Shown: one piece after another, positions 4,711 through 27,800 of the stretch
Layout: each line of letters starts with the position of its first letter
How positions within the stretch are numbered: position 1 is the first letter of the stretch
The notes under the pieces: generated by a model
Told to the model about the DNA's origin: nothing
Seen by the model: the letters and a program-made list of their open reading frames with translations, nothing else
Databases searched by the model: none
Assembly: GCA_964640155.1 (NCBI GenBank)
Contig: CAZXEQ010000001.1
Coordinates: forward strand, 111,256-143,255
Direction of reading: 5' to 3'
DNA from: an uncultured bacterium
GTDB taxonomy: Bacteria > Auribacterota > JACPWU01
DNA: 32,000 bases
Translations under genes and position numbers: made by a program

Positions 4711-4743
4711 ATGATTAGCAGATTGGGCTTTTTCATCGGACTT

Positions 4744-5895: not shown

Positions 5896-5945
5896 TGCGG
5901 GCCTTTCGTTGAATGTGTGGAATATTCTTTCCTTCTTCTAAGAAA

Positions 5946-6347: not shown

Positions 6348-6358
6348 AAATCACCTCT

Positions 6359-6753
6359 CTAGTGATAATCTGCAATTTCGACGTTGTATGCATCTCCATC
6401 AATCCATTTACAAGTCAGTTCATTTATTTCTACTTATAAATTCTGACAGTACTAAGGATAAGGGAGCTCAAAACCCTATCACCAGAGCAATGATCTATGT
6501 AAGTTTTGCAGATCTCCTTAGTAAAGCAAACTCTCCATTGATCATTGATCCTAATACTACAACCTCCTTCTCTATCTCCCTTTAATTTTTCCAACCTATT
6601 AGAGGGTGGAATCATTAAATCGGAAAGAACCATAGCATTATTGAGCATTCTAAGCTTTCTTCGAGAAACATTTTGAATGTCCGAAGGTAATTTGCGAGAT
6701 TTTATCCCTTCCCATATCTTCTTCGTCTCTACATCACCAAAGCCTTTGATCAT
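6359..6753 (-). pseudogene. higB: HigB-family (RelE/ParE superfamily) toxin gene interrupted by a 110-nt insertion
   Basis: Codons 1-78 (6753 down to 6520) read MIKGFGDVETKKIWEG...LKGDREGGCSIRINDQWRVCFT, as in HigB. The canonical C-terminus KWIDGDAYNVEIADYH* is encoded at 6409 down to 6359, in a different frame. Removing 6410-6519 restores a 94-codon in-frame HigB. As it stands, the frame reads through into the insertion and stops at 6430. Confidence 0.7.
6410..6519 (-). other. 110-nt insertion splitting higB (origin unknown)
   Basis: The boundaries are inferred from where HigB-like coding sense is lost and regained. TAA is present at both junctions (acTAAggag... / ...ttgTAAatgg). No convincing terminal inverted repeats were found. 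There is an internal hairpin GATAGGG-ttttgagct-CCCTTATC. Confidence 0.55.
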
Positions 6754-6830: not shown

Positions 6831-9800
6831 TTAAGCAGATATTTCAACGAACGATCTTCCAGTGGTTATTTCTTTCCGGTGAGGTCGTGGCATAGGATCT
6901 TTTTCATGCACTACTACAATGTAAATTGTTTCTTCTCCACTCATCTTTTGTCTTTGCATAGAAAAATTCTCAATCCGCATAGATTCATGCCCAGTTAAAG
7001 ATTCCCCTTCTAGCAAAGCACTTAGAACAATTCTTAAATCCATGGGACCTTTTGAGAAATCAATGTAAATTCTCTGTGTTAATCCTGCACGCTTGCCCAT
7101 CATTTGACTTAAAAGTTGCTGCAAAGCGGATGACAAGGGAATACTTTTGGGCTCTCGGCCTACTCCTTGATTAATTCTTACTTCTGCCATTGAAAGATCA
7201 AGTTCTAGGCCTTCAGAATCTTTATTCAAATATTTCTGAATTTGATCAACTAATTGGGCTACACGATTCTCTTTTTTTCTCTTTTGAATTTGAGCTGCAG
7301 AAGAAGCAACCGTTCTCTGTTCGTCCGCTGGAAGTCTCTTAGATAACTCCTCCACTGCTGCTTCAAGCAAAGCTCCACGTAAAAAACCTAGAGGGATATC
7401 TCCTGCTTTTATGATATCTCCCCCAATGTCATCCATTTTTTGAGCAGAAACAATAATGGCTTTGGCTAATTCTTGAGGAGGAATTTTTTGGAGCAGGAGT
7501 TCAATCTCTGCCTTTGCAATAGCTTTTTTCAATTGATCTAAATCAGCTTGAGAAATTTGGGCATCTTGAATTACTTGCTCACTTGTTCTGGAATCTTTTC
7601 CTTTGTTATTCGCGACAACACCCCCGCTGTCATCCCCGAGTGTTCCTATCGGGGATCCATTTTTTTCCCTATATTCCCTTCTATTCATTTCAATTTTAAT
7701 TAAAGTAGTCAGAGCAGCATGATTATTTTTTAGAAGGAACAGAAAAAGATCCTTTCCTATGTAAAGAGTAGATCTTTCTTCCCTGGCTCTTTTAGCAGCA
7801 TCGCCGCCCATTCCAAAGTGAGCATAGCTTGTGCCTTTTTCATTTCTTGCTACATAAGTCCGGCCAGAAAAAAGCACAAGGCGTGTAGATTTGAAAAGAT
7901 TTTGTATGTCAGGAGATAAAGTAGAAACATATTGAGCTAATTTATCACCAAAACCAATTTTCTGATTATCCTGAGCCGCATTTTCAACCACAAAACTCAT
8001 GGCTTGATCTGTTACTTGCGTTTTAGTCGTGGCCTCAATTCCAGCTTCTCCTAAATCTCTTTTCACATCCTGCCCAACTTCTGCATTCTCAATCCCTTGC
8101 GTATGACTCACCTCAAAATCAGGGGCAAAACCTAAATTACCTGAAGGGGTTGAAGAAGACTGAGGTATAGGAGGAGTTGCTACGTTGGGACTCTTCTCTC
8201 TAACAAAAGCTTGGGCCGTACCAGTGGCTTTTAGATTGCGAGATTTTAAAATACCACTAGAACCTCCTTTGACTATAAGTTTAATAAAACCATTCAAAAT
8301 TTCATATTTACCTTCTGCCTGTAATCTTTCCTCCACCTTTTTCAAAGTCTCCATTGGACTCACCAAAAATCCTACCATATTCAAAAGCATACGCTGACGA
8401 GGAGAAAGTTGAGCTTCAGTGGCCTTCGCCTCTGCTTCATGCACCCATCCTCCATTGGCTTTAACATAAGCTAAGACTTCAGGAGAATCCCATCTCAGAA
8501 CGTTATCTTTAAATCCACTAACATTTACTGTTAAATTTTTAGGATTTGGATGTTGTCTAAAAAATTCAAAAATAGTAGCTAGATCTTGTACTTGTGTATC
8601 GCGCAAATCTAATTTAGTTAAATTTAAACCATTTAATGCACGAATGTCTTTGTCTTTTACAGGTTGCATCCAAAAGATTAATTCCTGTAGATTTGTTAGA
8701 CTTTTTAATTTATGAATATTTTTTATCTCTTTAGCGAATCTTAAATCTAAAGAGAAAAACCCTTCTTTTATTTTGAATGCAATTTTAATTTGAACTTCAT
8801 CCAACTTTAAATCTTCTCTCAAAAACTTTAAAATCAATTGCTTTTGTCTTTCCTGTTCAGCATCAGGAATGGGTGAAGATTGTGAAGTTACCTTTGCTTG
8901 AACATCTTCTGCATTTTTTCGGACAATATAAGCTTTCACTTCAGGAGAATCATAGTTATACATATGCTCATCTGTGCTCATCCTTCCTTCATTTCTCAGA
9001 GTAACTCTTAAATTTTCAGGATGAGGATGCCGTGTAAAAAGTTCACCAAGACCAGGCATATAATCATTAAAGCTAAGTTCTGTTTCAAATACCCTAAATA
9101 CAGAGGAAATAATTAATTCAGATAAGTTTTCTAACCCATAGAGAGGCGATAAGTCATGAACCAAAGTGTTCAACACTAATTTTTTTAAATTCGTCAACCC
9201 ACTCAATTTGCGAATGTCTTGCACTTGCGTCCGACTAAGATCTAATTCAAGAAATCCATCGTCTCTTACTGCAAATCGTCGATTTATTTCGTCTGAATCC
9301 ATACCAAGATCGTTTAAAAAGTTCAGAATCACTTCCCTTTGCCGCTTACCCTCAGCATCAGATATGGCAGCGATCCCAGCAGTCCCTGTTTTTACCGCAG
9401 CTTCTTCTGCATTCTTTCGAGCGATATATTCCTGCACATCCTTGTCATCAATTTTGTATTCTCTTAATTCTTTTGGAAGAACTCTTGTATTTACTTTAAA
9501 ATTTCTGCCATCGGGATGTTGTCGAAATAATTCGAAAATTTCGTCCTCTGAAGAAGTAAGTCTCATAATTACTACTTCCGTCAAATTTAAACCTCTTAAT
9601 GCAGAAAGATCACCAATATTATTGAATACTACTTTCTTTAATCGAGTCATCCTTTTTAAAAGAGAAATATTTGGATGATCAGTCGCCAAAGAATCAATAT
9701 CTTGCCCTTCAAATTTAGGAGGACGTGCTTTATAAATGAAACTCAATTCTAAGAAATCATTTTCTTTTACCTCCAAAGCCTGGCTTATTTGGTACTCAGT

Positions 9801-12800
9801 TAAACCATATCCTCTCAAATATTCTTCAATTTCTCTTTTTTGCTCTTCAAGAGACAATTCAGGCTCAGAGTTTTCTAAAATACCCACTATAGAAGGTAAG
9901 GCTCTTAATACTGCATCTCGATTTTTGCGAGCCTTATAATCCTTCACTTTCTCAGAATTCTTGTTAAGAACTTCTTCTCCAAATTTTACTTCCAAATCAG
10001 GGTTTGGATGAGTAAGAATAAGCTCAAAAATCTGATCCCGAAATTGTTCTTGATCTCCTTCACTAAATAAACTAAATAAATCAGTTACGCGAATACTTAG
10101 CTGTTTTAAACTTCTTAATTTACTGATCTCCTTCAGAGCGATAGGTGTAGTATCAAAACCGAATTCTTCTAAGTGGGCTAAATCTTTTAAATCATCCAAG
10201 TCTCTAACTTCGTGACAATGTGCTAAATACAATCTCTTTAAATTTTTTAAGTTTCTTATCCCACTCAAATCTTTTAAATCACGCAAACCAAGAATCAATT
10301 CTTCCACTTGTCCTGCATTTTCTAAAAATCCGAGATTTTCAAACTCAAAATCTTGGACTATCATTTTTTTTAACTGCGTTAATCTATGTAATAGATCATT
10401 AAACTCTCTAAGTGCATCCTCAGAAAATGCTTTTCCAACTAAATTTAATTCTAAAACTCCACCATCTAAAATATTAATACTGCTTTCAGACAGTTTCCAC
10501 TTTTCTAAAAATGCTTCAACCAACTTCTTTTGTTCTTCTGCCTCAAACTTCTCACCTGCTTCAATTATACGTAATATTTCAGGATTTTCGGCATCATATG
10601 ATCTTGTACCATCTTGATTCACCACACTAAGATTCCTACGATTAGAATGAGCGTGGAAAAGACCTTGTATGAATATATTCTCTATTTCTTCATGTATTCC
10701 TACTCCTGTTAAATCTAGAGATACCAATTTTTTTAAACTAAGAAAAAGTTCATGCTCTTTTATTGTAATCTTAAATTTTGAACCATTAAGGTCCAAACTT
10801 TCTAAATCCATTCCTTCAATGGGAGATAGATCTTTAATATTTAAAGTTTCTACCAATCTTAATTGCTTAATCCTTTTTCTTCCTCTTAAGAATTCTATAT
10901 CTTTAAGATTTAAACGGTTCAGGTTTACTTCTAAGAAGGCATCATACGATCTAGTTACAACTGCAAATTCTGCAGCATCCTTGCTAATTCCTCTTCCCAT
11001 AAGATCATTTATAATTTGCAGCCTTTCTTCTTCGACTTGCTGTCGATCGGCTGAAACTACTACTCCAGCAGCAGATGTTTGTAACATTTTTACATCGTAT
11101 AATTTTCCTTCTTTGTTAATCACCCGAAGATTTTGGCGATTGGGATGTCGCCAAAAGATTTGAAAGATAGTCCTATCATCAACAGCTAATCCTTTTAAAT
11201 TGAGTTCTCTTAGATTAACTAAACTTATCAAAACATCTATTTCAGGTTCTCCTATAACTACAATCGATCCTTCAAGATGTAACTCTTCTAAATGAGGAAT
11301 ACCTTCTAAAACTGAAATATCTGACACTTTTGTGCCATTTAAATTAAGGACTTTTAGCAAGGTCATTCCTCTCAAACGAGAAATGTCTGCAACACGGGGA
11401 AGATCACTAAGATTCAACGCAAGAAAACCATCCGGAGTTAATGTTAGACGATCTGAAATTTCCCAGTCATTCAATTGGTACTTTTCTTTTAAAAATTCTC
11501 TAATCTCTGCTTTTTGAGTCTCCCGGCGTTCTTCAAAATAAGTTCGACCTTCTGGTTCCCAACGATATTCTTTTTTTATCCTAGCATCGTCTTTCTTTTC
11601 ATTATCATTTTCAAAAAGTTGTATTGTTAAATTTTCTCGATTAGGATGGTGGATGAAGTATTCTAAAACCTTCTCCTCTGTTATATCTGAAGCCCATAAA
11701 GCCAAAACCTTTAACTTTGTCAATCTATTCAATCGAAGCTGTTCGGGAACTAAAGCTAAAATAGTGATTTCTTCTAACTGGGTTAATTCACCTAAACCAG
11801 AAAGGGGGATTTCATTTGCACCAGCTAAAAATATTTTCTTTAAGTAAGGCAATTCTTTCAATACTGCTATATCCGTATCAGAATGTCCCAATCCAAAAAG
11901 AATTTCACAAACACGTGTCATTCCTTTTAAGAAAGAAACATCTTCAGGATATGAACCTTCAAGATCTACAATAAGGAAATTACCCTCTTTAATAGTCACT
12001 TTCTTTTCAGCTGTTTCTCTAGGGATTGTCCTTGCAACTAAAGCATCGATGATTAATTTTCTTTGTCTTTCTACTTCAAAAGACTCGAATACCCTTATAT
12101 CTGCTAGTGATTTTTCAGGATCAAATCTTGCAATATCTTCCGTAGAAGCTCCGACAGCCTTTTTGGGAGTCATTCCCCAAGTCTCAACCTCTACTTTTCT
12201 TCCCTCGCCTTTACCTTTTAAAATATAAATACTTCCCGAAATATTCGAAGTTATAATGCGTTCCCCATCTGAAGACCATACAACACTTCCTTCACTACTT
12301 CTGACCGATTCATCCGATTTTAAATAAAGCACCCAGTCATCTCCCCCTCTTTTCCCCCAAATTTGTAATCTGCTTCCATCTGCCACAGATACTATTCGCT
12401 TACTATCTGGAGACCATGCAATACCAGTGACTCTACCCTTATGTTGTTTTGGTTCTGAACTGATCCATTGATTTTTTTCATCTTTCTTCCAAACACGCAA
12501 TGTCTTATCCGATGATGCGGACACAATTTGAGTTCCATCCGGAGACCATGACACACTGGTTATAGGACCCGTATGGCCCTTTAACACATCCCCACTTATC
12601 CATTTTCCTTCACTATCTTTCTTCCAAATATTCAATGTTCCATCAGCTGATCCTGATATAATTTGTGTTCCATCAGGTGACCACGCAACACCTTGTCCAT
12701 CCATTCTAATGGAACTCTTTCTTAAAAACTCTGGACCACCCCATTTTCCTGCACTATTTTTCTGCCAGATCCGCAATGCACCATCACCCCATCCCGATAC

Positions 12801-15800
12801 AAATTGCGTTCCATCAGGTGACCACGCAACATCACTTACTTTACTCACACGCTCCAGAAATTGTTCCGAACTATCCCATTTACCTTCTGCATTTTTCTCC
12901 CAAATACGAAATTTCCCGTCAAGCGATACGGACACAATTCGATTTCCATCAGGTGACCATGACACACTATAAACCGTGTTTTTATGACCCTCTAGGTTTG
13001 AAACGATCCATTCCTCATCTTTCTTCTCCAATAAACGTAACGGCCCTTCAAATAATCCTGCTACTACCTGTGTTCCATCGGGTGAACACGCCAGACAATG
13101 TACCGAACCACTGCGTCTACTAGAAACAGGAAGCTTTTCAGAATCTCGAAGTATTATTTTTTCTAATTCATAAGCATCAAACATAGTGACGGTTTTTGTG
13201 ATGGGGCCAAAGACCAAATTGCTTTCTGATTCAATGGATCCCCGATTACTACTCTCGGGGATGACAGGGTTTCCTGCTTCCTGCTTCGTACTTCCTGTTT
13301 CGATTTTTCCAATTGCATCCAAACAAACTTTTCCTAGAGCAATGGTAGCAGCAAGGCGCTGAACATCATTTCCAATTTCCAACATTTTCTCAAGTTCAGA
13401 TACATCCATTTTATCATTTTTCACTCGTTCTGCATAAATAGGGCCAGAAACAATTGCTGCCCCTAAACGCGCTAATGGACTCCCTTGTGTTATCACTTCT
13501 GGCGATGCATCCATAGCGTATCCTATCGCTCTTGTTATAGCGTACTGAACCATTTCATTTGTATCTTTTGCTATGTCTGAAAGAGGTATCTTCTTATTTT
13601 TTTCATGCATTTTTGCATAAACAGATTCAAATGTATCTACAGCAGCTGAAGCCACATTAGGATCTTTATCTTTCAGCATATTTTGAATTAAAGAAAGATC
13701 CACATCTTTTCCATCCTCTAACATTTTGACATAAACCAAACCTAAAGCAATCACAGCAGCCATTCGAATAGCAGCATTCTCATCTTGTAAACCTTTTTCA
13801 AGATTAGTAATCGACAGACCTTTTTCAACCTGTTTAGCATAAACACGTCCCATGATTTCTGCTATATGGTCAAGATGAGGTTCGCTTGAAGTTGTTAATC
13901 TTATTCCCCAATTTGTTATGTTGTTTGAGTTTTTCTCTATTCCCATCTCTACATATTGTATTCCCAAAGCAATCGCGGCAGCTCGGGACCCTGCAGGCTT
14001 TTCATCCACTTTTGCTTCTAGTTCCTGCTGTGAGAATTTCTTTGCATAAATGAGACCCAAAGCATCTTCAGCCTTTCGTTTAATCAATTCGTCTTTTTCA
14101 TTTTTTATACTGTCTTCCAATAACGCTATCCAACGTTTTACATTTTCTCGAGATTTGTCATCATCTGTTTGAGATGTTACAGGTTCTGCTTTTTTGGGGG
14201 TCTCTTTTGCCTCGGTTTTTTCAGCTTCTGGAGCCACAAGTAAAGCATGCAAAAATTCTGCTTCAACACAGGCCTGAACTTCATCTAATGTGGTAACGAT
14301 ATAGCTCCCTCGGGAACGAGTGGCTAGGTCCTGACGGATGAGAGCCGGATCACAATTAGAAGGGGCTTTTAATGCCGCTCTTAAGGTAGTGGGGTGATTA
14401 ATACCTTTTTGACGAACATTGTTTCCTGTATAAACAGTAACTGTAAAACCCTGACTAAAAAGATAAATAAAAGCAGCTTCACTCAGAGGATTCAAAGATT
14501 CAGGACCAAGTCCTTCTTTTGGAATAATTAAAATAATTTCTTTGGGAGTTTCTTCTTCGGTTACACCACTTTTTACAAAGAAACGATTGGGATCCCCATC
14601 CACTAACCCTTGCACATTTAAAGCACTTCCATCAGGGCCATAAACTTTAGATCCAAACTCAAGTTTATTTTGAAAGAAGGGCTTCAATAATTTTCGAAGG
14701 GCATTGGAACGCTCTTGAAATGTTGGGAAGAGAACCTCCAAAGGATCAGTTGTGCCTTCTGGTATTTTTCTTTCATGCTGTAATGACGCTTTTACAGCTT
14801 CATCAATAGAATTATATTCTGTATAAGTGGGAAGCCCATCTTCAATTTTCTGTTGATCGCGAATAATCTTAGGTTCATATTTACTCTCTTTCGCATGTGT
14901 ATTTATGAATGAAGAACTAAATAAGGATGGAAATAAAATAAAAAGAATCATATTAAAAATTAATACAATCCCATAGCAAAGCATAATACTTACGACAGAA
15001 GCTTTCCCAGAAATTGCAAGATAGAGAAAATCAATAGTAGTAGCAAGCTCAACCACTGTTAATAGAGGACGAAGAGATTTGATCCACTGAGGAATATCAA
15101 TTTCTTTTTCAGTCTTTGCTTGATCTATCACTCGATAACGGATTCTCAGCAAGACTTTTGCAAGCGTCTTTTCAATACCCGAAAAGATAGTATGATCAAC
15201 TTTTTTCAAAATCTTCCAAAGTGTTTTCAAACAAAAGAGGATTGCACGAACTGGAGTCATAATCATGTAATGAAGAATTGCATCTCGCATTATTTTAATT
15301 TTTGAAATTTTCACCATGACAATATTGGCTGCAAGACGATTAACTTGTGTCACCTTTTGAGGTGCTTCTTTGGATACCGAAAGAGCGCCAACCAAGTCAA
15401 GGGCAGCAAGTCTTTGATTTGCGACTTCTACTTTTGTAGCAGAAAGCTCATCACCGGATGTTTCTTCTTCACTCTCTTCTAATTTTTCTTCTTTCTCACC
15501 CTCAACAAGCTTTTCATAATCTAATATCATCTCTGGATGTTTGCTGAGCTCTCGCAGCATCTTGAAATATTGAAATTCAACTTCTTCTTGGTCCAAAGTA
15601 AGAGGGATCATTCCCCATTCACTTTCAAGAGACGTATCCTGGGCACGAATAGCAGGATCAACACCAATAATTGTTCGAGCTACATCCAAATACTTTAATG
15701 CTAATTTAAATGGGTTGGGCTTGTATTTACCTTGATGGACTTCCCAGACTTTATCTAAGGCTTCAATGACTTGCTTACTCATCAAACCACGTGCATAAGT

Positions 15801-18800
15801 GGATAAGGCATATAAAAACACGCTAGAAAATTTCATTTTAATTAACTTTTCAAAATTGGCTTGCTGAACCGCTTCTACAAAAGCAATTTCTTGATTATCC
15901 GACAAATCTACCTTTGGGAAATGATGTCGAAGCGCATTTTCCATGCGATGGTCTTCTAGCCACATATAAAGATTGAACCAACTTTTCCGAGGCCACAATT
16001 GTTCAGGGAAAATAATGAGATGTGTAAAAAGGCCGTGGCTGGCTTCATGGTCGAGTACCTTTGGATTTTCCCCAATCGGATTTTCCGTACTGAGAGCAAT
16101 CACATGTTTTTTGGCATCATAATAGCCACCATTTTTCGTGACGGCATCCCAAGCCAATCTTACTTTTCGGCCATTGACTGGAATAATCATTTGAGCATTT
16201 TTTTCAAGGACAATTGCATTATCTACTTGAGTTGATTCCTGATATTTTTCTGCTTTTTCATAATCAAAAGTTTTTCCATCCGCTTCTAAAATTTTGAAAT
16301 AAACTGGGCCGTAGATCTTTGAGAAGATTTGAGAGAAAAGGTCTTCAAGAAGTAACTCCCCTTGATCCCCTTTTAACATAAGAGGGGAAACAGACTCTCC
16401 CCTTACGTTAAGGGGAGCTGGAGGGGTTACTGCTGCCGCTTCTCCTCTCACTAAAAGCTCTCCTGCCCTGATAAGTTCACGAATGGTCGGTCTTTCAGAA
16501 GGATTCTCAATGGTATCTCTTAAGTAGCAATGCCACCCGACCAAACGCTTCAGTAAATCTGGAGAAATTCTTCCCCCTAACGATTCACGCAAAATTTCTT
16601 CCAGTTCTATTTGAGGGTAATCACTGATGCGATGATAAATCAAACGATTCTGCAAAGCCGTAGAAAGTCGCTCACGTCCACCAAAATCTATCGAATTAAT
16701 AGTTCCAATCAGAGCAAAACCTTCAGCCGCTTCTCCTGTTAAAGAGGCATTGAGTTTCCCCTCTAAAATAGCCGAAGGAATTTGATTCATTTCACTTAAA
16801 ATAACAATGGAACCCTCTCGTCTAGCACGCTCAATCACACGCGCCATATCTTCATAATTTAAAGAAGCTGTAATGTGATAAAATTTCTTTGGATTCTTTC
16901 CTATTTCTTCTGGTTCATCGAGACGACCTTTTTGATACCCTTCTTTCTCAAGCAAATGGGCTGCAACCAAATCTTTTCCACGTCCTGAAGGTCCCTCAAA
17001 GAGAAGACCACGTTTACCTTGAGGAAAAGTCTTTTCCTCAAGCGCATCAGCCAAACGGCGATCTCTCATTAATAAAAACTGTTTCACTGTGTCTTGAAAA
17101 TCTAAGACGGACTGGGTATAAACAATAGGGGGTTGGCCTTCTGCACGATGAACTTCTCGGGCTCCTGTTTTAACTGATTTTTCTTTTAAAATACGTACCC
17201 CATATTTTTTAGCAATAATATGTTGAAGAGATACTCTTTCTTCAACTGTGAATAGACCTCGCATCACTTCCCATGCAATTTCAACCACTTGTTCAGTGCC
17301 TGTTGCAGGAAGTGAACGTACTCGGTATGAAATTTCTTGAATATCTCTTAAAGAAAAACTTCTTCCCTCTCCCATTTTCTTAAAAGCGAGAAAAAGATCA
17401 TAAATGATAGAAGCGTATTGGGCTTGCTCGGGTAAAAGATAATTCTTAATCTGTTTCTCATAAAAAGCTTGATCAAATTCTGAGAAATTAACTGTAGGGA
17501 CATAGCGTAATAAAAGATTTTGGAAGCGTCTGCCCGTCATTTTTTCCTGATTACCTGTAAAAATAATTTTATGACGATCTGTCAAAAAATGCTGACGTCC
17601 ATTAATCCAAACATAAGGTTTTGCTTCAAAAATACCTCCTAAAAAGGACCAAAAATCAGGATGGGAAAGATTGGCTTCATCAATCGTGAGAAGCCCTCCT
17701 TCGGTGTCAAGTGCCCATTGAGCAATAGTTTGAGTAATATAGGCAACTCTTTTCTGCTCAGCATTAAACTGACGTGCAACTAAAACATCACTTTCAGAAA
17801 TATCGGCACCGACCGATACAGGTCCATAATTTTTTAACTTTAATTTTTGAGCAAGTTCCTGGCTTAAATGACTTTTCCCGACCCCTGGCGGACCTCTTAA
17901 GAAAACAGCTGGATAAATTCCTAAAAGCTGAATACACTTTTCTTCACGGGCTTGAAGAATATCTTCTTGGTCATCCCCAAGTGCCACTGTCGTGATCGGG
18001 GATTCAGAACCGATCGGAATCTCCTTAATTCCGTACTTTGCCTTGTAATATTCAGCTCTCTCATGATCTCCTCGCATAGTTGCATCTCTAATTTGAGCAG
18101 TGCGAATTTGATTTAATGCTGGTTCATATTCTTCCTGTCTACCCACAAAAAAGCTTGGTATTGTTTGTCTTGCCAAAAGTTTATCACTCATTGTGTCCAT
18201 CAACTGCCAATAGCGGTCACGTAATGTCATTGGATAAACAATTTCATTTGTAATTGTTTTCAGACGCCTTCCATCAATCGTATCAGCACGCCCATCTTCC
18301 ATGGGGAAAGCTAATCTCATTTTAACGCGCATATATGCCGCCAATTCTGGAAAATCTTCATAGCGAGAAATAATCATTGCTTCAATCGCTTCTCTCCAAC
18401 CCTGGGGACCTAGACGACCTGTTGCTTGCCGATAGCGACATAATTGACGCAGTTGTGCTAATACGTAATTTACATGCTCAGGGTAAAGTCGTGCCAACTC
18501 CTCTGCCTCTCCCAACACAGGAAAAATATATCGGCCCCCATATCTTTCTAAAACATCTTTTGAGATAGAAGGCGAACCTGCTGCATTTCCAAATACAACC
18601 ATCAGCTTTTCTAATTTCGAATAATCCTCATCACTCATCACTCCAGTTTCACCTGGTTGATTAAATTCCTTCTGAACAATCGATTTAATTTCATCCTTGT
18701 CAGGAGAAAGAAATGCTTTATTTTTAATATGACTAAATTTTGATAAAGAACCGACTAAAATGAGTCGCCCAGAAAGTTCATTTAGATTCACTCTCTTACC

Positions 18801-21800
18801 ATTTTCTATCAAGTAAGGGGTCGTCGGCGACAAAACTGTTTCAAGCTGTCGTGCTAACTCTAGATTGCGCTCCAAACCTTCTAAAATAACTGTCTTCCCT
18901 GCTCTTAAATTCTCAAGAACTTGTTTCGTTTTACTTTGAAAGTGCTGCCCCAATTCAATTTCAATAGAAGAAGTGATATCAGAAAGGTCTGTCGCCGACG
19001 TTACTGGATAAACAATCGCTTCAGGATAAGTTTGCACCAATTTATTTAAAACAAAAGCACGATCAAATCCATTAACAACAAAGGCTTTCGCATCGTTTAC
19101 TTCTTCCAATTTCTTTTTTTCTGGATAGCTCGACCTAGATTTACTCCAATCGATATTTGCAAATTTATGGTATACGTTTGGAATTGAAACACCTGGTCCC
19201 AACCGAATTTGAATTGGCCGTTTCGAATGCATGATTCGATGCCAAACCCAATCTGAAACATGGCTTGTCACCCATAAACAAATAGGATCTTCCCCCTCAT
19301 CCAAAATCCCTTTTTCTTGAACAATTTGCCCTATTTCAGAATTAATTTTGGTTCTTGAAAATAAAGCATCCTGCGTTACCGAATTTATACTCCAAACAGA
19401 TATGTTTTCAGGTATGTCATCATCAAATTTAATTTCTTTTCCTGAAACTCCTTTTTCATAAGAGCCCGAACGCTCAAAAAAACTAAAATGAGAAGGTATT
19501 TGATAAAAAGTTCCATTGAACTTAATTCCACCATCTTGAATAATTTGACGAAGTTTACGAACAAAATCTTCAGAATGTGGCATGCCTTTTAAAATCAAAG
19601 GTTTTCCAGTTTCAATGGCTTGAATCAATTTACCTTTATGAACTTCAAGAAGACCCTTCTCATTTAGACGAAAAGACCCTATTAAAGCTTCTTCAAAAAA
19701 TCGAGATTCATAAAGCTCCACTTCAATGCCATCCAGATCTTCGGGTGCTTTGTCAATACGAAGAACTTCTTCATATTCCCAATTCAAATCCACTTGATTA
19801 CGAAAACGTGAATAAATAGAAACATCAAACATTCTCATTTGTGAATTGGGCATGGCCCCTATAATACGCAAATTTGCAGGAACCTCTATTCTTCCCCATC
19901 GAGTTGTCAAATACCCCTGTGCATCAAAAAGAGAATTTAGTTGCAAAGCTGCCTGAGGTTGAGCATCTTGATAATCAATAAAAATAATTCCTTCCGAACG
20001 AATGGCATCAATTAAGGGGCCTTCAAGCGTTCCATAAGATCCATCTTCTCTTACAACAATGGATGTAAGGAGATTATTAAATTCTTCTAAATCTCTTAAA
20101 TTGATGCGAACATACTTTTTACCTGTTTTTATAGCATACGCTCTTAATCGCTGATCAACCGCATCAGCAGCATTTGAATCTTTCACAAAGGCAAGCGTAT
20201 TTTTTTCTTGTAAAAGAGCTTCCACTTCATCAGGAATATAGGCCTCATATTTCTGAGCCAAAACAGGATTAACTTTCCTAAACGCTTCAAGCAATAGACT
20301 TAACTCTTTATCGGTTGCGCCCACTTCTTGAGCTACTTGCTTGTTTGTCCTCAAGTCTAGTTTTTCTCTTCTCTGTTTTAACCGATTCATCTCAATACGA
20401 ATCAAAACATTTAATGCCTTGGGATTCTCTCTCGCCAAAGTTTCAAACAACTTTTTGTCTATATAAAGCGTATGAGTTCGACCACTTACAGCTTCTCCCT
20501 GTGCAAATTGAACATTTGACATGGTGACAAGACCTGTATTTTTAAATTCTTCCCGAAGAGATTCATCCAAAGTCTTAAAATCATCACCATTAATATAATC
20601 GGCAAGAGGTTGAACACCCATTTCACACAATTTTGAAACAGTGAGTAATTGTGTTGAAGGATTTGAAAGCGCTGGAACTTCTCTTTGAGAGTAAATCTTA
20701 GCTAAAGCCGGATCAATTTCTGCAATAGCATCTAATAATAAATCTAATTCTTCATCAGTCACTTTAGCATCTCTTGCCGCTTGAACACTTGTTCTTTCAT
20801 CTTGTCCATTTTTTCTACGATGAATCAATCGATTCATTTCTATTCGAATCAAAATACTTAAAGCCTTTTGATTTTTTTTAGCCAAATGATCAAAAAGTTT
20901 TCTTCCCATATAAAGAGATTCTATCTTCTCTTCACCCGCTTCCTTACCTCCTTTGCCAAAGTGAGCATAACTGGTTCCCCTGTGATCTCTAGCATTAAAC
21001 AATGCTCCTGCCAAAAGAACTAGTCGGACTCCTTTAAAAGCTTCTTTTATTTCATCATCTAAAGCTTCAAACTCTGCACTCGCCAAATAATTCGTCACCG
21101 TTTGGCTTAAGTTATTTCCATCATCACCAAAAGTTTGCAGAGACGCTGCATCACTCACAATAAAACTTACTGTACCTTGATTCATTTGTGCTTGTCGAGT
21201 GGGTTTAATTCCCAATCTTTTTAATTTGGCTGCCAGAGGAAATCCAACTGTAGTATTTGTAATTCCTCCGACACTAGCCACATGTCCAGAAGCATCAACA
21301 GAAAAACTTCCATATTTTTCTGCCTTTTCAATAAATCTTTGCCCCTCTTCAGAACTCATCTCAGGTGGAGCAGGAGCCTGTGGAGCTCGAAATACCCGTA
21401 CTGTCTGTTCATCATAATCTCCTTGTAAATAAGAAATTAGACGGCCACTTGGTAAGAGCATATGAGAATATTGCAGCCGTTCTCCACTGGGCATCTGATT
21501 AAGCCCTAATGGATTAATTGATTTAAGATGTTTCCCAGAAAAACTATAAAAGGCTTCAGAACCGGTAACACGCAGTGCCCCGTTCATATCTCCCATCAAT
21601 ACCAAAGTTTTTCTAGAATCTTGAGAAATCCGTCGTGCGACCTGATAATCAGGAGCCGGATGATTTTCTGGGACTTCATTCTCAGCAAAATCCCCTATAC
21701 GATCGTAATAGTTCGCACGTGATGGTGGCCAACGCATGAGAATAATGTCTGCAGTGTCAGCTTCTTGACCTGCTTCTTTTCCATCCTTAATATCTGAGGC

Positions 21801-24800
21801 CTCTACTCGAATACCATAGGGTTCTAACAATTGATTCAAACCTCGTGCATGAGCCCCATTGCCAGCTCCGACTTCTTTAATGATAGGATCCTTTCCATAA
21901 CGCTGCCTATATTCGAGTACCAGCTTTAGAATATAATTTGCGGTAGCCTTCAAAGACTCCTGACTATCTAAAGCATAAATTCTCTCTCCTATTCCAGTTT
22001 TACCTAAGAACTCATCTAAAGCCTCCCCGGGAATATCCATTAAAAACAAATGGTTAGATAACGTACGAAGCTCCCACAACGTGGGATAACGACCGAGTTC
22101 TCCTCTCAAAAACTTATTGAGAATCAAAACAGGATTAGTCTCACGGGAAAATCGCCTCAATTCAGGACCAAAAGAAAGGTTATCAAGCAAAGCATTTCCC
22201 ACTGCCTCAGCTGAAGACTGACTTAGATTTGACTGATATTTTCGAAAGAGTGGCAAGCTTTCGCGCAATCGTGGCGAAATTCCCAGAAGAGGATTATTTT
22301 CTTGGTCAAATAAAATCTCAGCATAAACTACAACCCTAAATACCTCCTCCAAGACTGTCTTATTTGCTTCCTCATCAAATCGTATTTTTTCCCAAAGCAA
22401 ATCCCGTAATTTCAGAGTTTCTTCTCTTAGTTCGGGATTACGTAATGCCGCACGAAATTGTGCCACTGAGAATTCTTCTCCCTTTTGGATACGTTCCAGA
22501 AAATCTTCTGCGGTCCTAGGAAGATTGCTTCTCCAATCTAATATTTCTCTCTGAGCATTCACTGGGTCTGTTCCAAGAGAGATAAGTTTCAGATACTCCC
22601 ACGCATCATCAGGATTACCTGTTTCAAGCGATATTGCTTCTGCAACTCCTGCAACATAAGCACCCAATAAATAGCTCCACTCAGGTTCAGGATACAAATG
22701 TCTATAAATCCGTTGTAGAAACGTCCCCCTTCTAATATATTCAGGGATGGAATAGAAAAGATCTCGCCTATGCTTACCTTTTACGCCTGCTTTTTCTGCA
22801 AGCATTTCCCATAGTTTTTCAGGATTATTCCGATTCTCTTTAAAAAGCCTCATTCCTTCATTAACCTGTATATACTCACTTCCAAGAGTCCTAACTTCTC
22901 TTAAAACAGAAATTGCTGTAGCGCCTGGAATATCCATCATATCGCCATCAGCTGAAATAACATGAACCATTTCATGTAATGCTGTTTGATAAAATTGTTT
23001 AGGGCCCGCTGTTGGAAAAATCCATAATCCTGGAACGGCTTCATTTACAAAACCAAACTCTCCAGTCCAAGCACGCCTTAAAGTCATAAGGATGGGAATA
23101 CCAATTTTAAAATGAAAGATGGTAAAAAATATTCCTAAAATAGGATTCAGAAAAAATACGGGGACAATAAAGCTCGCTAAAAGGACGAAAGAAAAAACAT
23201 CCTTCCACCAACCATAACTTTTATACCCCGTTTTAATTCCGGCAAGGATGAACCTGAGTGGTGTATAAATATTAAATCTGGAGATAAGGTTTTTTTCACG
23301 TTCTTTGCGTACATTTTCTGGACGATTTCGATAGATCAAACTTGCAAGAAATTTTGCATGTTCCTCAACTATTCTCTGCTGAGTAGGGGTAACTTGACCA
23401 GATGGAATATCCACCAACCACTTTTTAAAAAAAGTACTAATTAATGAGCTTTCTTCTCCAGAATTGGATGAAATTCTTGTTTTCTTCCCTAATACAATCT
23501 CATCTGTAAAACCATTATTTGCTTCTTCCCCAAAAATCTCGTCTTGCAATCCGTAAAGCAATTCACGCCCTGTACGGTTTTTGTCTGTTCTAGCCGCATT
23601 GTAGCGGATCAATGCAAATTCTGTTTCGTTGTGACGATCTTTGGGAAGTTGGGATTGGATGTATCGGATGAGTTTTTCAGGGTCTGTATATCGATTAATA
23701 TCAGGTAAATTTCTAATATCTTTCCCCACACCTCTTAAGTAAGTATGCGCGTTAACACCAGGAGGAAGTTCTTCAGGATGTAAATGATAATATCCTTCTC
23801 CTAGTTCATGAAAAAATGCGATGGGATTATCTAAAAGAGATTCTTTTAAATAAAGAACTTCACCACCCGAAAATCCATCCACATCAGAATCATCCGAAAG
23901 AACTTTTACAGGTTTACCAAGAACACTTTGTATATGAGCCTCAAAACCTGACGACAATGTACCAGAAACGAGGCCCAATTGCTCAAATGTTAATGGCTGC
24001 TCATCATCTAGCACCGTTGCACGAGGTTCTCTGTCATCTTCAGTGTAAAGAGGTCCTTCAGTAGATTTAAAAGTAACAATACCATCCTTCCCTGTTGCCG
24101 TAATCGCACCTGTCGCCACCCGCCTTCCTCCGGGATGAGAAGCTGGATCCAAATATAATTTTCCAATGAGTCCCCCTCTTTCTCCTTCATTAGAAGGATT
24201 CTGCCCTTTTGGAAGGGGATTTTGACCAATTTGATTTATCTCATCTGGAGGTATTTCAATATCTAACAAATCCAACTTAAAATTATAATTTTTGGACTCA
24301 TCTCGGAATAAGTTTTTAGTCCAATTATTCTCTTCTGCCTCCAATAATTTTTTTTCAACCCATTTTTTGAAGACCGGTAAAAATTCCATCAAATTCACAA
24401 CAACAGTCATCATAAACACAAAAATTCTTCCGAAAAAATAATTTTTTAGCATCCATTTCCCAATCCAAGCATACCTTACAGCAAGTTTTAGAGCTAAAAC
24501 TTGTAAGAGGGACATTTCTCGAATTAAATTTAATTCTTTTAAATCTAATTCTTTTATTTCAAAAAAATTATTATTCTCTCCCTCTCCTTGAAAATATTTA
24601 TTCCAATCATAGCTTTTTCTTCTCATTTCCCTTTCAGGAGCTATAAGTCTATTTATATCTGTAGACGAAAGAGAATTTAAAAGACCATCAAGAGTAACAA
24701 CATCTAAAACTTCTGCAGGACCTGGTATTTCTTCAGTTCCAAATCTCTTTGACCAATTTATAACAAACTCTTGACTGCTCTCAGGGATATCCACTCGTCG

Positions 24801-27800
24801 TGCAATGGCTAATCCAGCAAGAAGATATTTATGAAATTCTTCTGGAAAATATCCGCAAGCAACTTCATCTGTTGCTCCTACCCTCACTAAATCGAACGCC
24901 AGTCGGACCGTCAAATGACTAGACTCCGTTAAGTGCTCTATCAATTTTTCATCCCAACCTGCATGAGCACTATGAAGTTCATGAACCACACCTAATCCCA
25001 TCTTATAAAATTGATACGCCATGACATCATTTTTACGTTTGCGTTCCTCCACAGATAAACCCGCTGATTCATTTTCAATAACCAAAAATCTTTTTAAAGC
25101 TAATGCTTTCCCCACTAAATCTTGCCCATACACTACATCTACATAATGAAGAATTTGTTTCATCGAAGGTTTATCGCCTGCCAAAACTGGAATTCCTAAA
25201 GAAGCCAAAGGCATGCGATCAAATTCTGTAGAAGCACTTTCAAGCAAAGCAAAAGTAGGCCATAAATTTTCCTGAAGTCGATGAACATCTAACCGTCCAT
25301 CAACATTCAACAGCCCACTGATAATCTTAACTTCAATGGTTGGGTAACGAGAAGATAAGTTGATCATAACATCATGCCCACGTGCGTCTTCAGCTGTTTG
25401 GACCATTCCTTCATGAGCAGGCCTTACAAATCCTCCTCGAGGGGCTCGATAGCCATATCCCATCAAAGCCCTCCACATGGCTTCAAAAACTTTAACCACA
25501 CGTGCAAACCTTTTTTTATCAAATTTTCTGTCATCAAATTTATCACCCAGCTCTGTAAGAGATTTCCGTCCCACATGCATATGCACACTATGAAGTCCTC
25601 CAGGCAATATCTCTTGCAACTCTGTTAATCCTTGTTTGAGCCCGGCCCAATCCCTATTCGTATTCTCATGATATTCTCCTGCTGGATTCGCTGATTTTAT
25701 TTCGATCACATTCGCTGAATTTTCTACTAATCTCCATCCAGAAGGTAATACAGATTGAACTCTTTCTAAAACACGAGCCCTTGCCTTTTCCCATTTTCCT
25801 GCTGGAAGTTTTTTGTTTTCCTCCCATAAAAATAATTCATCTGGGGTCAGAGCAAGAGAAGTAAGATCATCATCTGTAATTTGATCCGTAACTAAAAATT
25901 CTAGTTCTAAAGAAAAGGTGGTGTCACTTGCAAAGGGAAGTCGACCTTGAACATTAAACTCCGCTACTCTAAGAGCTTCAAAAAGTTCTTCACGTTCAGC
26001 TTCAGATAGAGTCGAAACATTTTCTAGTAGTTTTCGGACTCTTTCACGTAACGCTGGCGGGCTACGCCCTCGAAGAACCTCTCTAAGAACATAATCTGGA
26101 ATTTTTGCTTGTTGTTCATATAATCCCAAACCTGCGAAAGCCAATCTTAAATCTTGACCTCCAAAATCTTGATGCAATCTATCACCCATCAATAATGAAG
26201 AATAAAAATCCGACGCCGGGCGTAAAACATCTAGGGGGATCTGCAGGGTTGTTTGTGTTACGGGTCTAGTGCGTTCACATTCTCTTAACTGAGTACTAAA
26301 CGCATTATTAGCTTCTTCCCCAAAAAAATCATCCTGTAAACCATGGAGCAATGCTCGACCTATCCGATTTTTTTTCGCATTCAGTCTTATAAGGGCAAAC
26401 TCGGCAAGATTAATTCTTTCTTCTCGACCTTCTGCTCTAAATGTTCTCTCAACTAAATCAATAAATCCAATTGCATTCCCACTTTCAAGTAGAGTAGCTC
26501 CTTCATCTGTTGAAGCAATCTCTCTTACATCTTTTCCAACACCTCTTAAGTGAGTATGTGCATTTAATGCCATTGTTTGTGAATCGTCTCGACCCGGGAG
26601 TTGATCAGGATGCTGTACAAAATATCCCTCACCCCATTCATGAAGGAGAGCCATTGGATTTTTAATTAAGGATTCTTTTAAATACAGAACATTTCCATCT
26701 GAAAAGCCATCCACATCAGAATCTTCTGAAAGAACTTTGATGGATTGACCCAGCATACTTCGTAAAGTTTCAAAACCTGGTGTCAATGTTCTGGATACGA
26801 CTCCTGAGTTGTCATCCTCGAATGTATCTATCGGGGATCCATCGATTTCCGGAATGACATCTAAAAATGTCAATAGCTGCTCATCACGCAATACTTTTGC
26901 CTGAGCTGGTTCTTTCTTTTTATTATAAAGAGGTCTTTTAGTTTCCCCATCACTGGTCGTAAAGCTCACAAATCCATTCACATCTTCCGTTGCCGTAATG
27001 GGCCCTATTGCCACTTGCTTACCATCTTTATCCAAAAATAATTTTCCAATAAGACCTACAAAGCTGGCTTCCTCTAAAGGCTGAGAAACACCTGAAGATG
27101 TTGATATCAGATTTTGAGATTGCTTCATATATTCTCTGATCGGAATCATTCCTTGCCCCGTTTTCACAAAAATAAAATCAGGGGGGATATCTCTAATAGG
27201 GAGAGGAAAACCATCCGTTCCAAATTCCTCTTCAAGATTGACTTCAAGCTCTCCTAAACTTTCTGGAGAAATATTCTCTTTAGCCCAACTTTTGGGAATA
27301 CGCAGCACTAAAATAATAGGAATACGACTCGATTGAGCATTAACCTCAGTAACCTTATCATGAGGACCATTTTTAACAACATGATCATGAGCCAATTGTG
27401 GATCTGGCGTTCCATAAATAGCCATAATTGGATTCCCAGGTTCGTAAAAAGCTGTCATTCCTTCATGTGCAATAGCTTCCATGTTCTCTGGCACTGTACC
27501 ATGATAAACAACATAATTATTTACGTAATCTTCTTGCGGATTTTGCTCTCGCAAAGCTGCAGACCTGACACGACCTTGAGCTCTTATAATCAATTTTTCT
27601 GCTTTATGAATGGATTCTATTTCCGATGGGAATTCTTTTCTCATGACTTCAATAAATGCCTGGCATCTCTCGATACATCCCTGATATTGACCTCCCTTAA
27701 ATAATGCGTTAGCTCCATCCATTATTTGAAGTAACTGTCTTAATCTCTCTTGAATTCTTGCATTTTCAGATGCAGCAGCTCTTTGTCGCTGAGCTTCTCT

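What the first reader, a model, noticed from the sequence alone, without database searches (positions are those of the whole stretch)
14260..20210. Midasin/dynein-like concatenated AAA+ array followed by HExxH, TM helices and a possible MIDAS-less VWA-like region
About 1,230 aa consist of successive AAA_5-like units. Only the last two retain intact P-loops (GPPGVGKS with LLTIDEAN; GPSGRGKD with IVILSEMN). The upstream units keep the G.L..A...G..I.L strand/helix pattern but lack Walker A. Single-chain multi-AAA rings are the hallmark of dynein and midasin and are rare in bacteria. Downstream come HEASH, hydrophobic helices, and a segment (EIILIIPKEGLG...FTVTVYTGNNV) that loosely recalls a VWA beta-strand order without DxSxS. 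AAA followed by metallopeptidase-like and VWA-like regions echoes MoxR-VWA systems and midasin, here fused into one chain as a possible built-in mechanochemical unit.
Basis: partly seen in the sequence, partly recalled or inferred. Interest (0 to 1): 0.66.

Follow-up and report, generated by a model that had tools for sequence, protein, structure and literature searches.

The report
Bacterial five-module AAA motor with protease-like domain
Inside an 8,719-residue protein of an uncultured Auribacterota-type bacterium lies a conserved ~2,000-residue cassette of five fused dynein/midasin-type ATPase modules (only the last two can bind ATP) joined to an undescribed zinc-protease-like domain; fused AAA arrays of this kind are so far described only for eukaryotic motors.

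Summary
The finding is residues ~3915-5898 of one giant minus-strand ORF (8,373 aa in the window, 8,719 aa in full). Profile-profile comparison shows five AAA_5-derived modules: A-C have no P-loop, D has canonical Walker A/B, and E has a deviant GKD / S-E pair. The only strong sequence relative with a solved structure is midasin (E 2e-28). A confident AlphaFold model (pLDDT 83, pTM 0.78) matches dynein motor domains only among the top 50 hits (E 1e-24 to 1e-20). Arginine fingers are kept only in E (100%) and A (96%), as expected if E serves D's site and the ring closes E to A.

After the array comes an orphan module with invariant HExxH...ED.R and a zincin-like order of secondary-structure elements. 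The fold match is not significant. The "VWA-like" segment is a small, unclassified alpha/beta module: no MIDAS motif, no VWA hit. The TM helices are lineage-specific.

The array is a family of at least 155 clusters across Auribacterota, Omnitrophota, Elusimicrobiota and Planctomycetota. Of the best 152, 45 carry this HExxH module and 77 a transglutaminase-like domain; one has both. I read it as an ATP-driven remodelling or processing unit. Ring closure and peptidase activity are inferred, not shown.

The parts
6831..32000 (-). Giant ORF that contains the finding. 8,373 aa from the first in-window ATG. The real start is 346 codons upstream, outside the window, giving 8,719 aa with an N-terminal signal/anchor.
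   Evidence: open frame 8,724 aa; N-terminus MFLNDQGSQTFRRILSICLIVAFFFTGLF...
19773..20204 (-). AAA unit A (res ~3917-4060). AAA_5 core without a P-loop (beta1 LAFVKD, then SNAADAV). Walker B remnant IIFIDY. Arg-finger-position R4049 is conserved in 96%.
   Evidence: R4049 and R5103 both align to AAA_5 profile position 138.
19308..19757 (-). AAA unit B (res ~4066-4215). Degenerate: no Walker A/B, and the finger position is not conserved (R 23%).
19098..19283 (-). Small beta-alpha-beta-alpha insert (res ~4224-4285) with near-invariant W4237 (DWVWHRIMHS). Not AAA-like by profile.
18708..19085 (-). AAA unit C (res ~4290-4415). Degenerate: Gly replaces the Walker B acids (TVILEG).
18033..18698 (-). 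All-helical region X (res ~4419-4640, about 14 helices) between units C and D. Conserved P4491, Y4531, W4582. Possible linker or lid-like element.
17028..17990 (-). AAA unit D plus lid (res ~4655-4975). Canonical site: GPPGVGKS (G4687, G4690, G4692, K4693 96-100% conserved), Walker B D4758-E4759 (100%), sensor-1 N4801 (100%), R4808 (99%), lid R4869 (100%). Its own finger position is not conserved (R 11%).
16443..17027 (-). AAA unit E plus lid (res ~4976-5170). Deviant site: GPSGRGK-D and Walker B S-E (E5054 99%), N5086 (99%), R5093 (95%), Arg finger R5103 (100%). This is the unit most similar to midasin AAA3.
15483..16346 (-). Orphan HExxH module (res ~5203-5490). H5302, E5303, H5306, E5333, D5334 and R5336 are invariant in 21 homologues. 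Element order is backing helix, 3-stranded sheet, HExxH helix, then a helix carrying E-D.
14883..15455 (-). Variable coiled-coil / hydrophobic region (res ~5500-5690) with two TM-like helices at 5630-5674. Low model confidence. Not conserved in homologues.
14208..14720 (-). Conserved C-terminal alpha/beta module of the cassette (res ~5745-5915; KEIIL...GF.VTVYT). Unclassified and not VWA. It co-occurs with the HExxH module in 41 of 45 homologues.

Best explanation
Residues ~3917-5915 are one conserved cassette. It is a single-chain, asymmetric AAA+ machine of the MoxR/dynein/midasin clade, coupled in cis to a zincin-like HExxH module.

Five AAA_5-derived large domains (A, B, C, then a helical region, then D and E) pack into a dynein/midasin-like arc or ring. 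Only D (canonical) and E (deviant GK-D / S-E) bind nucleotide. E's arginine finger completes D's site, and A's retained finger completes E's site if the ring closes E to A. A-C act as inert ring scaffold, as AAA5/6 do in dynein and four of the six units do in RNF213.

ATP turnover at the D/E pair would open and close or twist the ring. That motion would be passed to the attached HExxH module and to the HEAT/WD40/LRR platform downstream. The likely job is to remodel a bound protein segment or feed it to the peptidase. The substrate would be a captured partner or the giant protein itself.

The topology reading is: signal/anchor, then 1 TM, then 2 TM before the cassette and 2 TM after it. On that reading the cassette is cytoplasmic.

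Shown: the modules, their motifs and conservation, the midasin sequence kinship, the dynein-like predicted fold, and the association with a peptidase-type domain. Inferred: ring closure, which sites hydrolyse ATP, peptidase activity, and the substrate.
For: Five AAA-derived units by profile-profile comparison and Pfam.

Motif conservation over 152 family representatives:
- D has Walker A/B at 96-100%.
- E has K4993 at 99% and E5054 at 99%.
- The finger position is conserved in E (100%) and A (96%), but not in B (23%), C (none) or D (11%). That is the pattern expected if fingers are kept only next to live sites in a closed ring.

A 24-sequence profile hits midasin alone among PDB sequences (2e-28 and 4e-23; the next best is 2e-5).

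The AlphaFold2 model of 3926-5125 has pLDDT 83 and pTM 0.78. The top 50 Foldseek PDB hits are all dynein motor domains, at E 1.8e-24 to 4.5e-20, with 1,000-1,470 aligned columns and TMq 0.33-0.40. DSSP shows the clade's helix-2-insert and pre-sensor-1 hairpins in A-D.

The HExxH...ED.R motif is invariant in 21 homologues. The best, though weak, fold neighbours are minimal zincins: abylysin (probability 0.85), selecase and IrrE.

Among 152 relatives, 45 carry this HExxH module and 77 a transglutaminase-like domain, with only 1 carrying both. The array is therefore habitually paired with one peptidase-type domain.

Precedents: RNF213 has six AAA units in one chain, with two of them active according to that paper's motif analysis (PMC7311170). 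MoxR-vWA-TGL operons have been proposed as degradation systems (PMC3495828).
Against: Only five AAA units are detectable, so a canonical six-position ring is not demonstrated. TM-scores to dynein are moderate (about 0.4).

Units A-C lack helical lids, unlike dynein and midasin modules.

No significant fold or sequence match supports the zincin assignment (best Foldseek E 0.7-0.9; PDB profile E 0.67; no Pfam family).

D's lid arginine R4869 is 100% conserved although it does not fit the simple 'conserved only beside live sites' logic.

The hydrophobic segments were found by hydropathy only, so the topology is a guess.

No experimental data exist for any member.
Confidence: 0.55

Rival explanations
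1. Not a self-contained ring. Only the D-E pair is the working ATPase, and it assembles between chains (for example three chains giving a six-site ring, as first supposed for RNF213). A-C would be decayed duplicates serving as an adaptor or regulatory arm.
For: Only two live sites and only five units. A-C lack lids, and a 220-residue helical region separates them from D. MoxR-type ATPases normally work as homo-hexamers (PMC6987120).
Against: All full-length family members examined in the domain table keep A-C together with D-E. A's finger arginine is 96% conserved, which has no obvious use outside a ring contact with a live site. pTM 0.78 for the 1,200-residue chain points to a single compact body. 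Alignments to dynein run over 1,000 or more columns.
Confidence: 0.2
2. A nucleotide-gated switch or scaffold rather than a motor-protease. ATP binding, with little hydrolysis, would set a conformational threshold that exposes or hides the LRR/WD40 platform, as proposed for MoxR in conflict systems. HExxH would be a structural metal site.
For: E has a deviant Mg-ligand arrangement. RNF213's two-site ring is read as a slow switch (PMC7311170). MoxR-vWA pairs are proposed as threshold switches (PMC7159879). No significant protease fold hit was found.
Against: D keeps every catalytic residue, including the Walker B Glu and sensor 1, at about 100%. The HExxH glutamate and the downstream E/D are invariant. 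The mutually exclusive pairing with HExxH or transglutaminase-like domains argues for catalysis.
Confidence: 0.17
3. A true bacterial midasin orthologue whose C-terminal segment is a MIDAS-less VWA domain that docks on the ring.
For: Midasin is the best solved-structure relative by sequence. The order AAA array, then HExxH, then an alpha/beta module echoes the AAA - HELGH - DFSGS(VWA) order of another giant protein in the same genome.
Against: There are five units, not six. There is no D/E-rich linker. The C-terminal module has no MIDAS motif and no VWA match in Pfam, PDB or Foldseek. Comparison with the in-genome VWA gives hhalign 0.2%, and comparison of the two HExxH regions gives 1%.
Confidence: 0.05

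Closest known systems
Midasin (Rea1/Mdn1/MDN1), eukaryotic pre-60S remodelling AAA+
   Same: Several AAA_5 modules lie in one chain. It is the only strong sequence match among solved structures (6or5 at 2e-28, Rea1 at 4e-23). Unit E aligns to AAA3, including the ELNL.P..LE.LN motif.
   Different: Five units instead of six, of which only two have P-loops. Units A-C have no lids. There is no long linker, no D/E-rich region and no MIDAS domain. An HExxH module follows instead. The host is bacterial and the protein is membrane-anchored.
Cytoplasmic dynein motor domain
   Same: It is the best structural neighbour of the predicted fold: all top 50 Foldseek hits, E down to 1.8e-24, 1,000-1,470 aligned columns. 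The ring is asymmetric, with dead modules. A helical region precedes the main ATPase module.
   Different: No stalk or microtubule-binding domain and no buttress. TM-score is only about 0.4. The order of live and dead modules differs.
RNF213/mysterin dynein-like core
   Same: A giant multidomain protein with a single-chain AAA ring. Its ATPase-motif analysis singles out two neighbouring units, AAA3 and AAA4. The ring is coupled to an enzymatic module and is read as a conformational switch (PMC7311170).
   Different: It is eukaryotic, has six units, is coupled to an E3 ligase rather than an HExxH module, and no sequence kinship was shown here.
MoxR-VWA systems (RavA-ViaA, CbbQ-CbbO, NorQ-NorD) and the proposed MoxR-vWA-transglutaminase (YebA-type) degradation operons
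   Same: Same AAA+ clade (AAA_5, helix-2 insert). Distant relatives of the array are fused to transglutaminase-like domains, echoing the proposed MoxR plus TGL peptidase partnership (PMC3495828).
   Different: MoxR proteins are single-module homo-hexamers with a separate VWA partner. Here the modules are fused, three are dead, and no VWA was found in cis or next door.
FtsH (AAA + M41 HExxH protease), as a functional analogue
   Same: The order is an AAA module, then an HExxH zinc-peptidase-type domain, in one membrane-anchored chain.
   Different: FtsH is a classical-clade AAA homo-hexamer with an M41 domain. No sequence or fold relation was found here.

Membership tests
AAA+ clade 7 / Pfam AAA_5 (MoxR-dynein-midasin) | Match to the AAA_5 profile above the curated cut-off (22 bits) | tested here: met
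   Unit D scores 44.5-50.5 bits. E scores 21.4 and A 19.7 bits when scanned alone, both just under the cut-off. The summed score is 78 bits over 4 stretches.
AAA+ clade 7 / Pfam AAA_5 (MoxR-dynein-midasin) | Walker A GxxGxGK[ST] and Walker B hhhhDE | tested here: met
   D has GPPGVGKS and TIDEAN, 96-100% conserved. E is deviant, with GK-D and S-E. A-C have neither.
AAA+ clade 7 / Pfam AAA_5 (MoxR-dynein-midasin) | Helix-2 insert and pre-sensor-1 beta-hairpin | tested here: inconclusive
   The DSSP order of the AlphaFold model shows two beta-hairpins at the expected places in A, B, C and D. I read this from the secondary-structure string, not from a superposition.
AAA+ clade 7 / Pfam AAA_5 (MoxR-dynein-midasin) | Sensor-1 Asn and a trans-acting Arg finger | tested here: met
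   N4801 100%, N5086 99%, R5103 100% and R4049 96%. R4049 and R5103 both align to AAA_5 profile position 138.
Midasin (Rea1/MDN1) | Six AAA modules in one chain forming the ring | tested here: not met
   Five AAA-derived units were found by hhalign. Region X, the small insert and the lids show no AAA similarity.
Midasin (Rea1/MDN1) | C-terminal MIDAS/VWA domain (DxSxS) after a linker and a D/E-rich region | tested here: not met
   There is no DxSxS motif and no VWA hit. Comparison with the in-genome MIDAS VWA gives hhalign 0.2%.
Midasin (Rea1/MDN1) | Specific sequence similarity of the AAA modules | tested here: met
   The profile scores 2e-28 and 4e-23 against midasins, and 2e-5 or worse against everything else in the PDB. 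blastp of unit E against a midasin-like protein gives 33% identity, E 2e-11.
Dynein heavy-chain motor | Six-module AAA ring with linker, coiled-coil stalk/MTBD and buttress | tested here: not met
   The fold neighbourhood is strong. However, there are only five units, and no stalk-like coiled coil sits inside the array.
MoxR-VWA chaperone pair | VWA-domain partner, fused or encoded next door | tested here: not met
   No VWA was found in the cassette or in neighbouring genes of the window or of L001/L002.
Zincin / gluzincin metallopeptidases | HExxH on a helix plus a third acidic ligand on a following helix | tested here: met
   H5302-E-x-x-H5306 and E5333/D5334 (27-28 residues later) are invariant in 20-21 homologues. 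Both lie on predicted helices (model 2 H194-206 and H220-241, preceded by a 3-stranded sheet).
Zincin / gluzincin metallopeptidases | Significant fold or profile match to a known zincin family | tested here: inconclusive
   Foldseek gives abylysin at probability 0.85 but E 0.93, selecase at probability 0.5-0.57, and IrrE at E 2. The PDB profile search gives IrrE at E 0.67. No Pfam family matches.
VWA domain | A ~180-200-residue six-stranded Rossmann-like fold with MIDAS (DxSxS...T...D) | tested here: not met
   The confident part of the model is about 100 residues with 4 strands (model 2 residues 702-809). No conserved Asp or Ser follows strand 1. There are no VWA matches.

The most novel reading that the evidence does not exclude
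Fused multi-module AAA_5 rings with only a few live sites are not a eukaryotic invention. This bacterial family pairs a five-module array with a peptidase. Together with the six-module/MIDAS giants found in the same genome, it would represent the prokaryotic stock, or a sister lineage, from which the midasin/dynein/RNF213-type single-chain motors arose. The literature I could search places that fusion early in eukaryotic evolution (PMC3495828).
Probability: 0.12. Interest if true: 0.85.

Novelty: new variant of a known kind. Interest (0 to 1): 0.62.

Why it matters
Single-chain AAA+ rings (dynein, midasin, RNF213) are textbook eukaryotic machines. The searchable literature derives them from single-module bacterial MoxR by a fusion placed early in eukaryotic evolution (PMC3495828, PMC3791482).

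Here a conserved fused array with the same live/dead asymmetry is spread over several bacterial phyla. It scores better against midasin than against any MoxR-type protein with a solved structure. That gives a tractable prokaryotic model for how asymmetric rings work, and it bears on where they came from.

It also gives a first mechanistic handle on the giant proteins of Omnitrophota/Auribacterota-type bacteria. In those proteins AAA_5 has so far only been listed as a frequent domain (10.1101/2023.11.21.568195). The cassette, its HExxH module and its C-terminal module have no Pfam family. Databases label such proteins only 'AAA family ATPase'.

Tried and rejected
- **Single-sequence searches.** phmmer of the array against PDB sequences gave nothing useful. 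Pfam and NCBIfam on the first 4,684 residues gave nothing.
- **VWA hypothesis.** Rejected. There is no motif. Pfam on 21 members gave nothing. The PDB profile search gave only a spurious 50-residue match to designer PPR repeats, inflated by identical repeats and at odds with the predicted beta-strands. Foldseek gave nothing. hhalign against the in-genome MIDAS VWA gave 0.2%.
- **Two HExxH modules compared.** Homology between this HExxH module and the HELGH module of the second giant protein was not detected (1%).
- **Stand-alone homologues.** None were found for the HExxH or C-terminal modules (the search is word-index limited).
- **A sixth AAA unit.** I looked in region X, in the small insert and upstream. 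None was found.
- **Walker A/B Asp-Ser swap in unit E as covariation evidence.** The raw table is striking (86 D+S against 32 S+D). On a tree, however, it reduces to about 2 coupled switches, with no statistical power.
- **Collinearity of units with midasin AAA1-6.** The matches are too weak to order.
- **Names for relatives.** None exist; all come from metagenomes.
- **Ring closure.** It could not be measured because the prediction tool returns no coordinates.

Full report
**1. What is at the coordinates**

The span 14260-20210 is not a gene of its own. It lies inside a single minus-strand ORF, 6831..31952 (8,373 aa from the first in-window ATG), and the frame stays open to the window's end. 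In the genome the open frame is 8,724 codons. The first ATG is 346 codons upstream of the window, so the protein has 8,719 residues. It begins with a signal-peptide-like or anchor segment, MFLNDQGSQTFRRILSICLIVAFFFTGLF. The genome is 2.44 Mb and 97% complete. The closest relative of the cassette, at 77% identity, is in a MAG labelled Candidatus Auribacterota.

**2. The AAA array**

Pfam sees only AAA_5: clearly at 4683-4804, and weakly at 3944-4050 and 4984-5103. An exhaustive HMMER search with residues 3904-5103 found 1,195 representative clusters at E<=1e-3 and 155 at E<=1e-30. About 50 of the listed hits cover the whole 1,200 residues.

I built sub-profiles for each putative unit from these homologues. 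The degenerate upstream units are homologous to the bona fide unit D and to each other: A-D 94% (E 3e-8), C-D 97.5% (3e-11), B-C 98% (2e-11), A-C 95%, B-D 75% and D-E 98.6% (1e-14). The helical region 4411-4679, the small insert 4226-4318 and the lids show no AAA similarity.

So there are five AAA-derived units, not six: A (~3917-4060), B (~4066-4215), C (~4290-4415), D (~4655-4825 plus lid) and E (~4982-5108 plus lid).

**3. Which sites are alive**

I measured conservation over 152 family representatives.

| Unit | Nucleotide-site motifs | Arg-finger position |
|---|---|---|
| A | no P-loop | R4049, 96% |
| B | no P-loop | R in 23% |
| C | no P-loop | none conserved |
| D | GxxGxGK[ST] 96-100%; Walker B D4758-E4759 100%; sensor-1 N4801 100% | R in 11% |
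| E | K4993 99%; Walker B Glu E5054 99%; sensor-1 N5086 99% | R5103, 100% |

The finger position is the 'RF' arginine, AAA_5 profile position 138, equivalent to RavA R170 (PMC6987120). It is conserved in exactly two units, E and A.

In AAA+ rings the finger of the adjacent unit completes a nucleotide site (PMC7311170). In dynein it is the following module that does so; that point rests on my own knowledge. The pattern here is what one expects if E serves D's site and A serves E's site, that is, if the chain closes on itself from E to A. This is an inference, not a measurement.

Unit E has an unusual arrangement. The residue after the Walker A lysine is Asp (72%) and the Walker B Asp position is Ser (64%). 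In the raw counts the two states pair up almost exclusively: D+S in 86, S+D in 32. On a tree this reduces to about two coupled switches, too few to test.

**4. Kinship**

A 24-sequence profile of the array, built from window and locus translations (A2), was searched against all PDB sequences. It hits midasins alone with significance: S. pombe Mdn1 at 2e-28 and Rea1 at 4e-23. Everything else is 2e-5 or worse and limited to the P-loop. Unit E aligns to Mdn1 AAA3 (897-1051) and unit A to AAA5 just after its P-loop.

AlphaFold2 on the same alignment gave a confident model, with mean pLDDT 83.1 and pTM 0.78. Its 50 best Foldseek matches in the PDB are all dynein motor domains: E 1.8e-24 to 4.5e-20, 1,000-1,470 aligned columns, TM-score 0.33-0.40 on the query.

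The secondary-structure order shows the two beta-hairpin inserts typical of this clade in A-D. A-C have no helical lids. A ~220-residue all-helical region sits before D. D and E have lids. Coordinates are not exposed, so I could not test ring closure or count ring positions. The moderate TM-scores fit an arc of several modules with dynein-like curvature, and no more than that.

**5. Downstream of the array**

A second alignment and model cover 5104-5930 (A3; pLDDT 70, with good confidence for 5203-5490 and ~5803-5903). H5302, E5303, H5306, E5333, D5334 and R5336 are invariant in 20-21 homologues. The predicted element order is a backing helix, a three-stranded sheet, the HExxH helix, and then a helix carrying E-D. 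That is the zincin/gluzincin layout.

The support from fold and sequence searches is weak:
- No Foldseek hit is significant. The nearest are minimal zincins: abylysin (probability 0.85, E 0.93), selecase and IrrE.
- The PDB profile search gives only IrrE, at E 0.67.
- No Pfam family matches in any of 21 members.
- No stand-alone homologues were found.

The next ~190 residues are variable. This protein has two TM-like helices there (5630-5674), but most homologues have none.

The last conserved piece (5745-5915, KEIIL...GF.VTVYT) is a small alpha/beta module. It has no conserved acidic or serine motif after its first strand. It has no VWA match in Pfam, PDB sequences or Foldseek, and no stand-alone homologues. 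Its one PDB 'hit' is to designer PPR repeats. I judge that spurious, because it is a single 50-residue stretch against targets made of identical repeats.

The same genome holds a second giant ORF (6,914 aa) with several AAA_5 hits, HELGH and a true MIDAS motif, DFSGS. Neither my HExxH module nor my C-terminal module is detectably related to that protein's HExxH/VWA arm (hhalign 1% and 0.2%). The VWA reading is therefore not supported.

**6. Family and context**

The whole ~1,900-position cassette recurs in about 40 representative clusters. A scan of species genomes and metagenome contigs returned 25 loci. Where a record title names the source, the labels are Auribacterota, Omnitrophota, Elusimicrobiota, Planctomycetes, FCPU426 and Marinamargulisbacteria. 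Within the window's own phylum it is rare, in 3 of 61 genomes. Neighbouring genes are unrelated between loci, so the cassette works within its own chain.

The most informative pattern concerns the partner domain. Of the 152 best relatives of the array, 45 carry this HExxH module and 77 carry a transglutaminase-like (thiol-peptidase-fold) domain. Only one has both. The C-terminal module goes with HExxH in 41 of 45. So the five-module array is habitually paired with one or the other peptidase-type domain. This echoes the MoxR-vWA-transglutaminase degradation systems proposed from operons (PMC3495828) and, by analogy, FtsH.

**7. Mechanism proposed**

I propose a cytoplasmic, single-chain, asymmetric AAA+ ring or arc with two adjacent live sites (D and E) and three dead scaffold modules. 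This is the logic of dynein and especially of RNF213. RNF213 has six AAA units in one chain, its motif analysis singles out AAA3 and AAA4, and the ring is read as a conformational switch (PMC7311170).

ATP turnover would drive opening and closing or twisting. That motion would act on the attached zincin-like module and on the HEAT/WD40/LRR platform that follows (WD40 and LRR from Pfam, HEAT read by eye). The result would be remodelling or cleavage of a bound protein, possibly the giant chain itself.

- Shown: the modules, motifs, conservation, midasin and dynein kinship, and peptidase-domain association.
- Inferred: closure, hydrolysis at E, peptidase activity, the substrate and the topology.

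Overall confidence is 0.55. Taken separately, I put the array and its ATPase nature at about 0.9, ring-like packing at about 0.6, and peptidase coupling at about 0.45.

**8. Comparison and novelty**

It works like midasin, dynein and RNF213, but it is not a member of any of them. It has five units, not six, and it lacks a MIDAS domain, a stalk or an E3 module. It is a member of the AAA_5/clade-7 superfamily.

I found no description of this cassette in the searchable literature. Searches for giant-gene papers, midasin-like bacteria and tandem AAA+ proteins turned up nothing relevant. West-Roberts et al. only list AAA_5 among frequent domains of Omnitrophota giant proteins. Zhang et al. place the fusion of MoxR into six tandem AAA+ domains early in eukaryotic evolution.

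Earlier AI notes of this scan describe what appears to be the same cassette in other genomes, in proteins of 7,555 and 4,522 residues. Those lengths match my hits P0049 and P0018. The notes also describe a separate six-module/MIDAS family. They agree with my results but are not independent evidence.

I rate it a new variant of a known kind, with interest 0.62.

Noticed in passing
window 16971-16973 (res 4994) and 16794-16796 (res 5053): In unit E the Walker A Ser/Thr is Asp and the Walker B Asp is Ser. Across 152 relatives the two states pair almost exclusively: D+S in 86, S+D in 32, S+S in 5. This suggests a swapped Mg-ligand pair. On a tree it amounts to only about 2 coupled switches, so it is suggestive and not tested.
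   Followed up: yes
L030:1-1146 (G000:C1:143100-144245), upstream of window nt 32000: The giant ORF starts 346 codons outside the window, giving 8,719 aa in full. Its N-terminus looks like a signal peptide or signal anchor (RR, then a hydrophobic run, then SSALA). Most homologues also begin with one hydrophobic segment.
   Followed up: partly
G000:C3:96507-117248 (L031/L032): The same 2.4-Mb genome has a second giant ORF (6,914 aa). It has several AAA_5 hits, HELGH at residue 6302 and a true MIDAS motif, DFSGS, at 6598. It belongs to a different multi-AAA family and is not detectably related to this cassette's HExxH or C-terminal modules.
   Followed up: partly
P0053, P0060, P0068, P0100 and 73 more relatives: Metagenomic proteins of roughly 2,000-2,500 residues carry the same five-module AAA array fused to a transglutaminase-like core (PF01841). 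The domain lies after the array in 46, before it in 30 and inside it in 1. All are unnamed.
   Followed up: partly
window 19098-19283 (res 4224-4285): A small insert with near-invariant Trp (DWVWHRIMHS, W4237 at 96%) sits between AAA units B and C. Its role is unknown.
   Followed up: no
window 14208-14720 (res 5745-5915): A 50-residue stretch of the C-terminal module (LF..GF.VTVYT...) resembles the designer-PPR consensus (E 3e-10 against targets made of identical repeats), while the model predicts beta-strands there. Probably a chance motif match.
   Followed up: partly
window 22962-22976 (res 2993-2997) and 23079-23186 (res 2923-2958): A second HExxH (HEMVH) lies directly after a pair of TM-like helices, far upstream of the cassette. 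It looks like a membrane-proximal zincin motif.
   Followed up: no
window 3-962, + strand: A partial ORF is made almost wholly of Asp/Gly/Ser runs (DDDDDGSGSGSGSGS...). GC is 0.47 and GC skew +0.31, unlike the rest of the window.
   Followed up: no
window 6036-6753, - strand: A HigA-like antitoxin ORF and a HigB-like ORF lie just downstream of the giant gene. A BrnA antitoxin gene sits next to the homologous giant gene in L002/L003.
   Followed up: no
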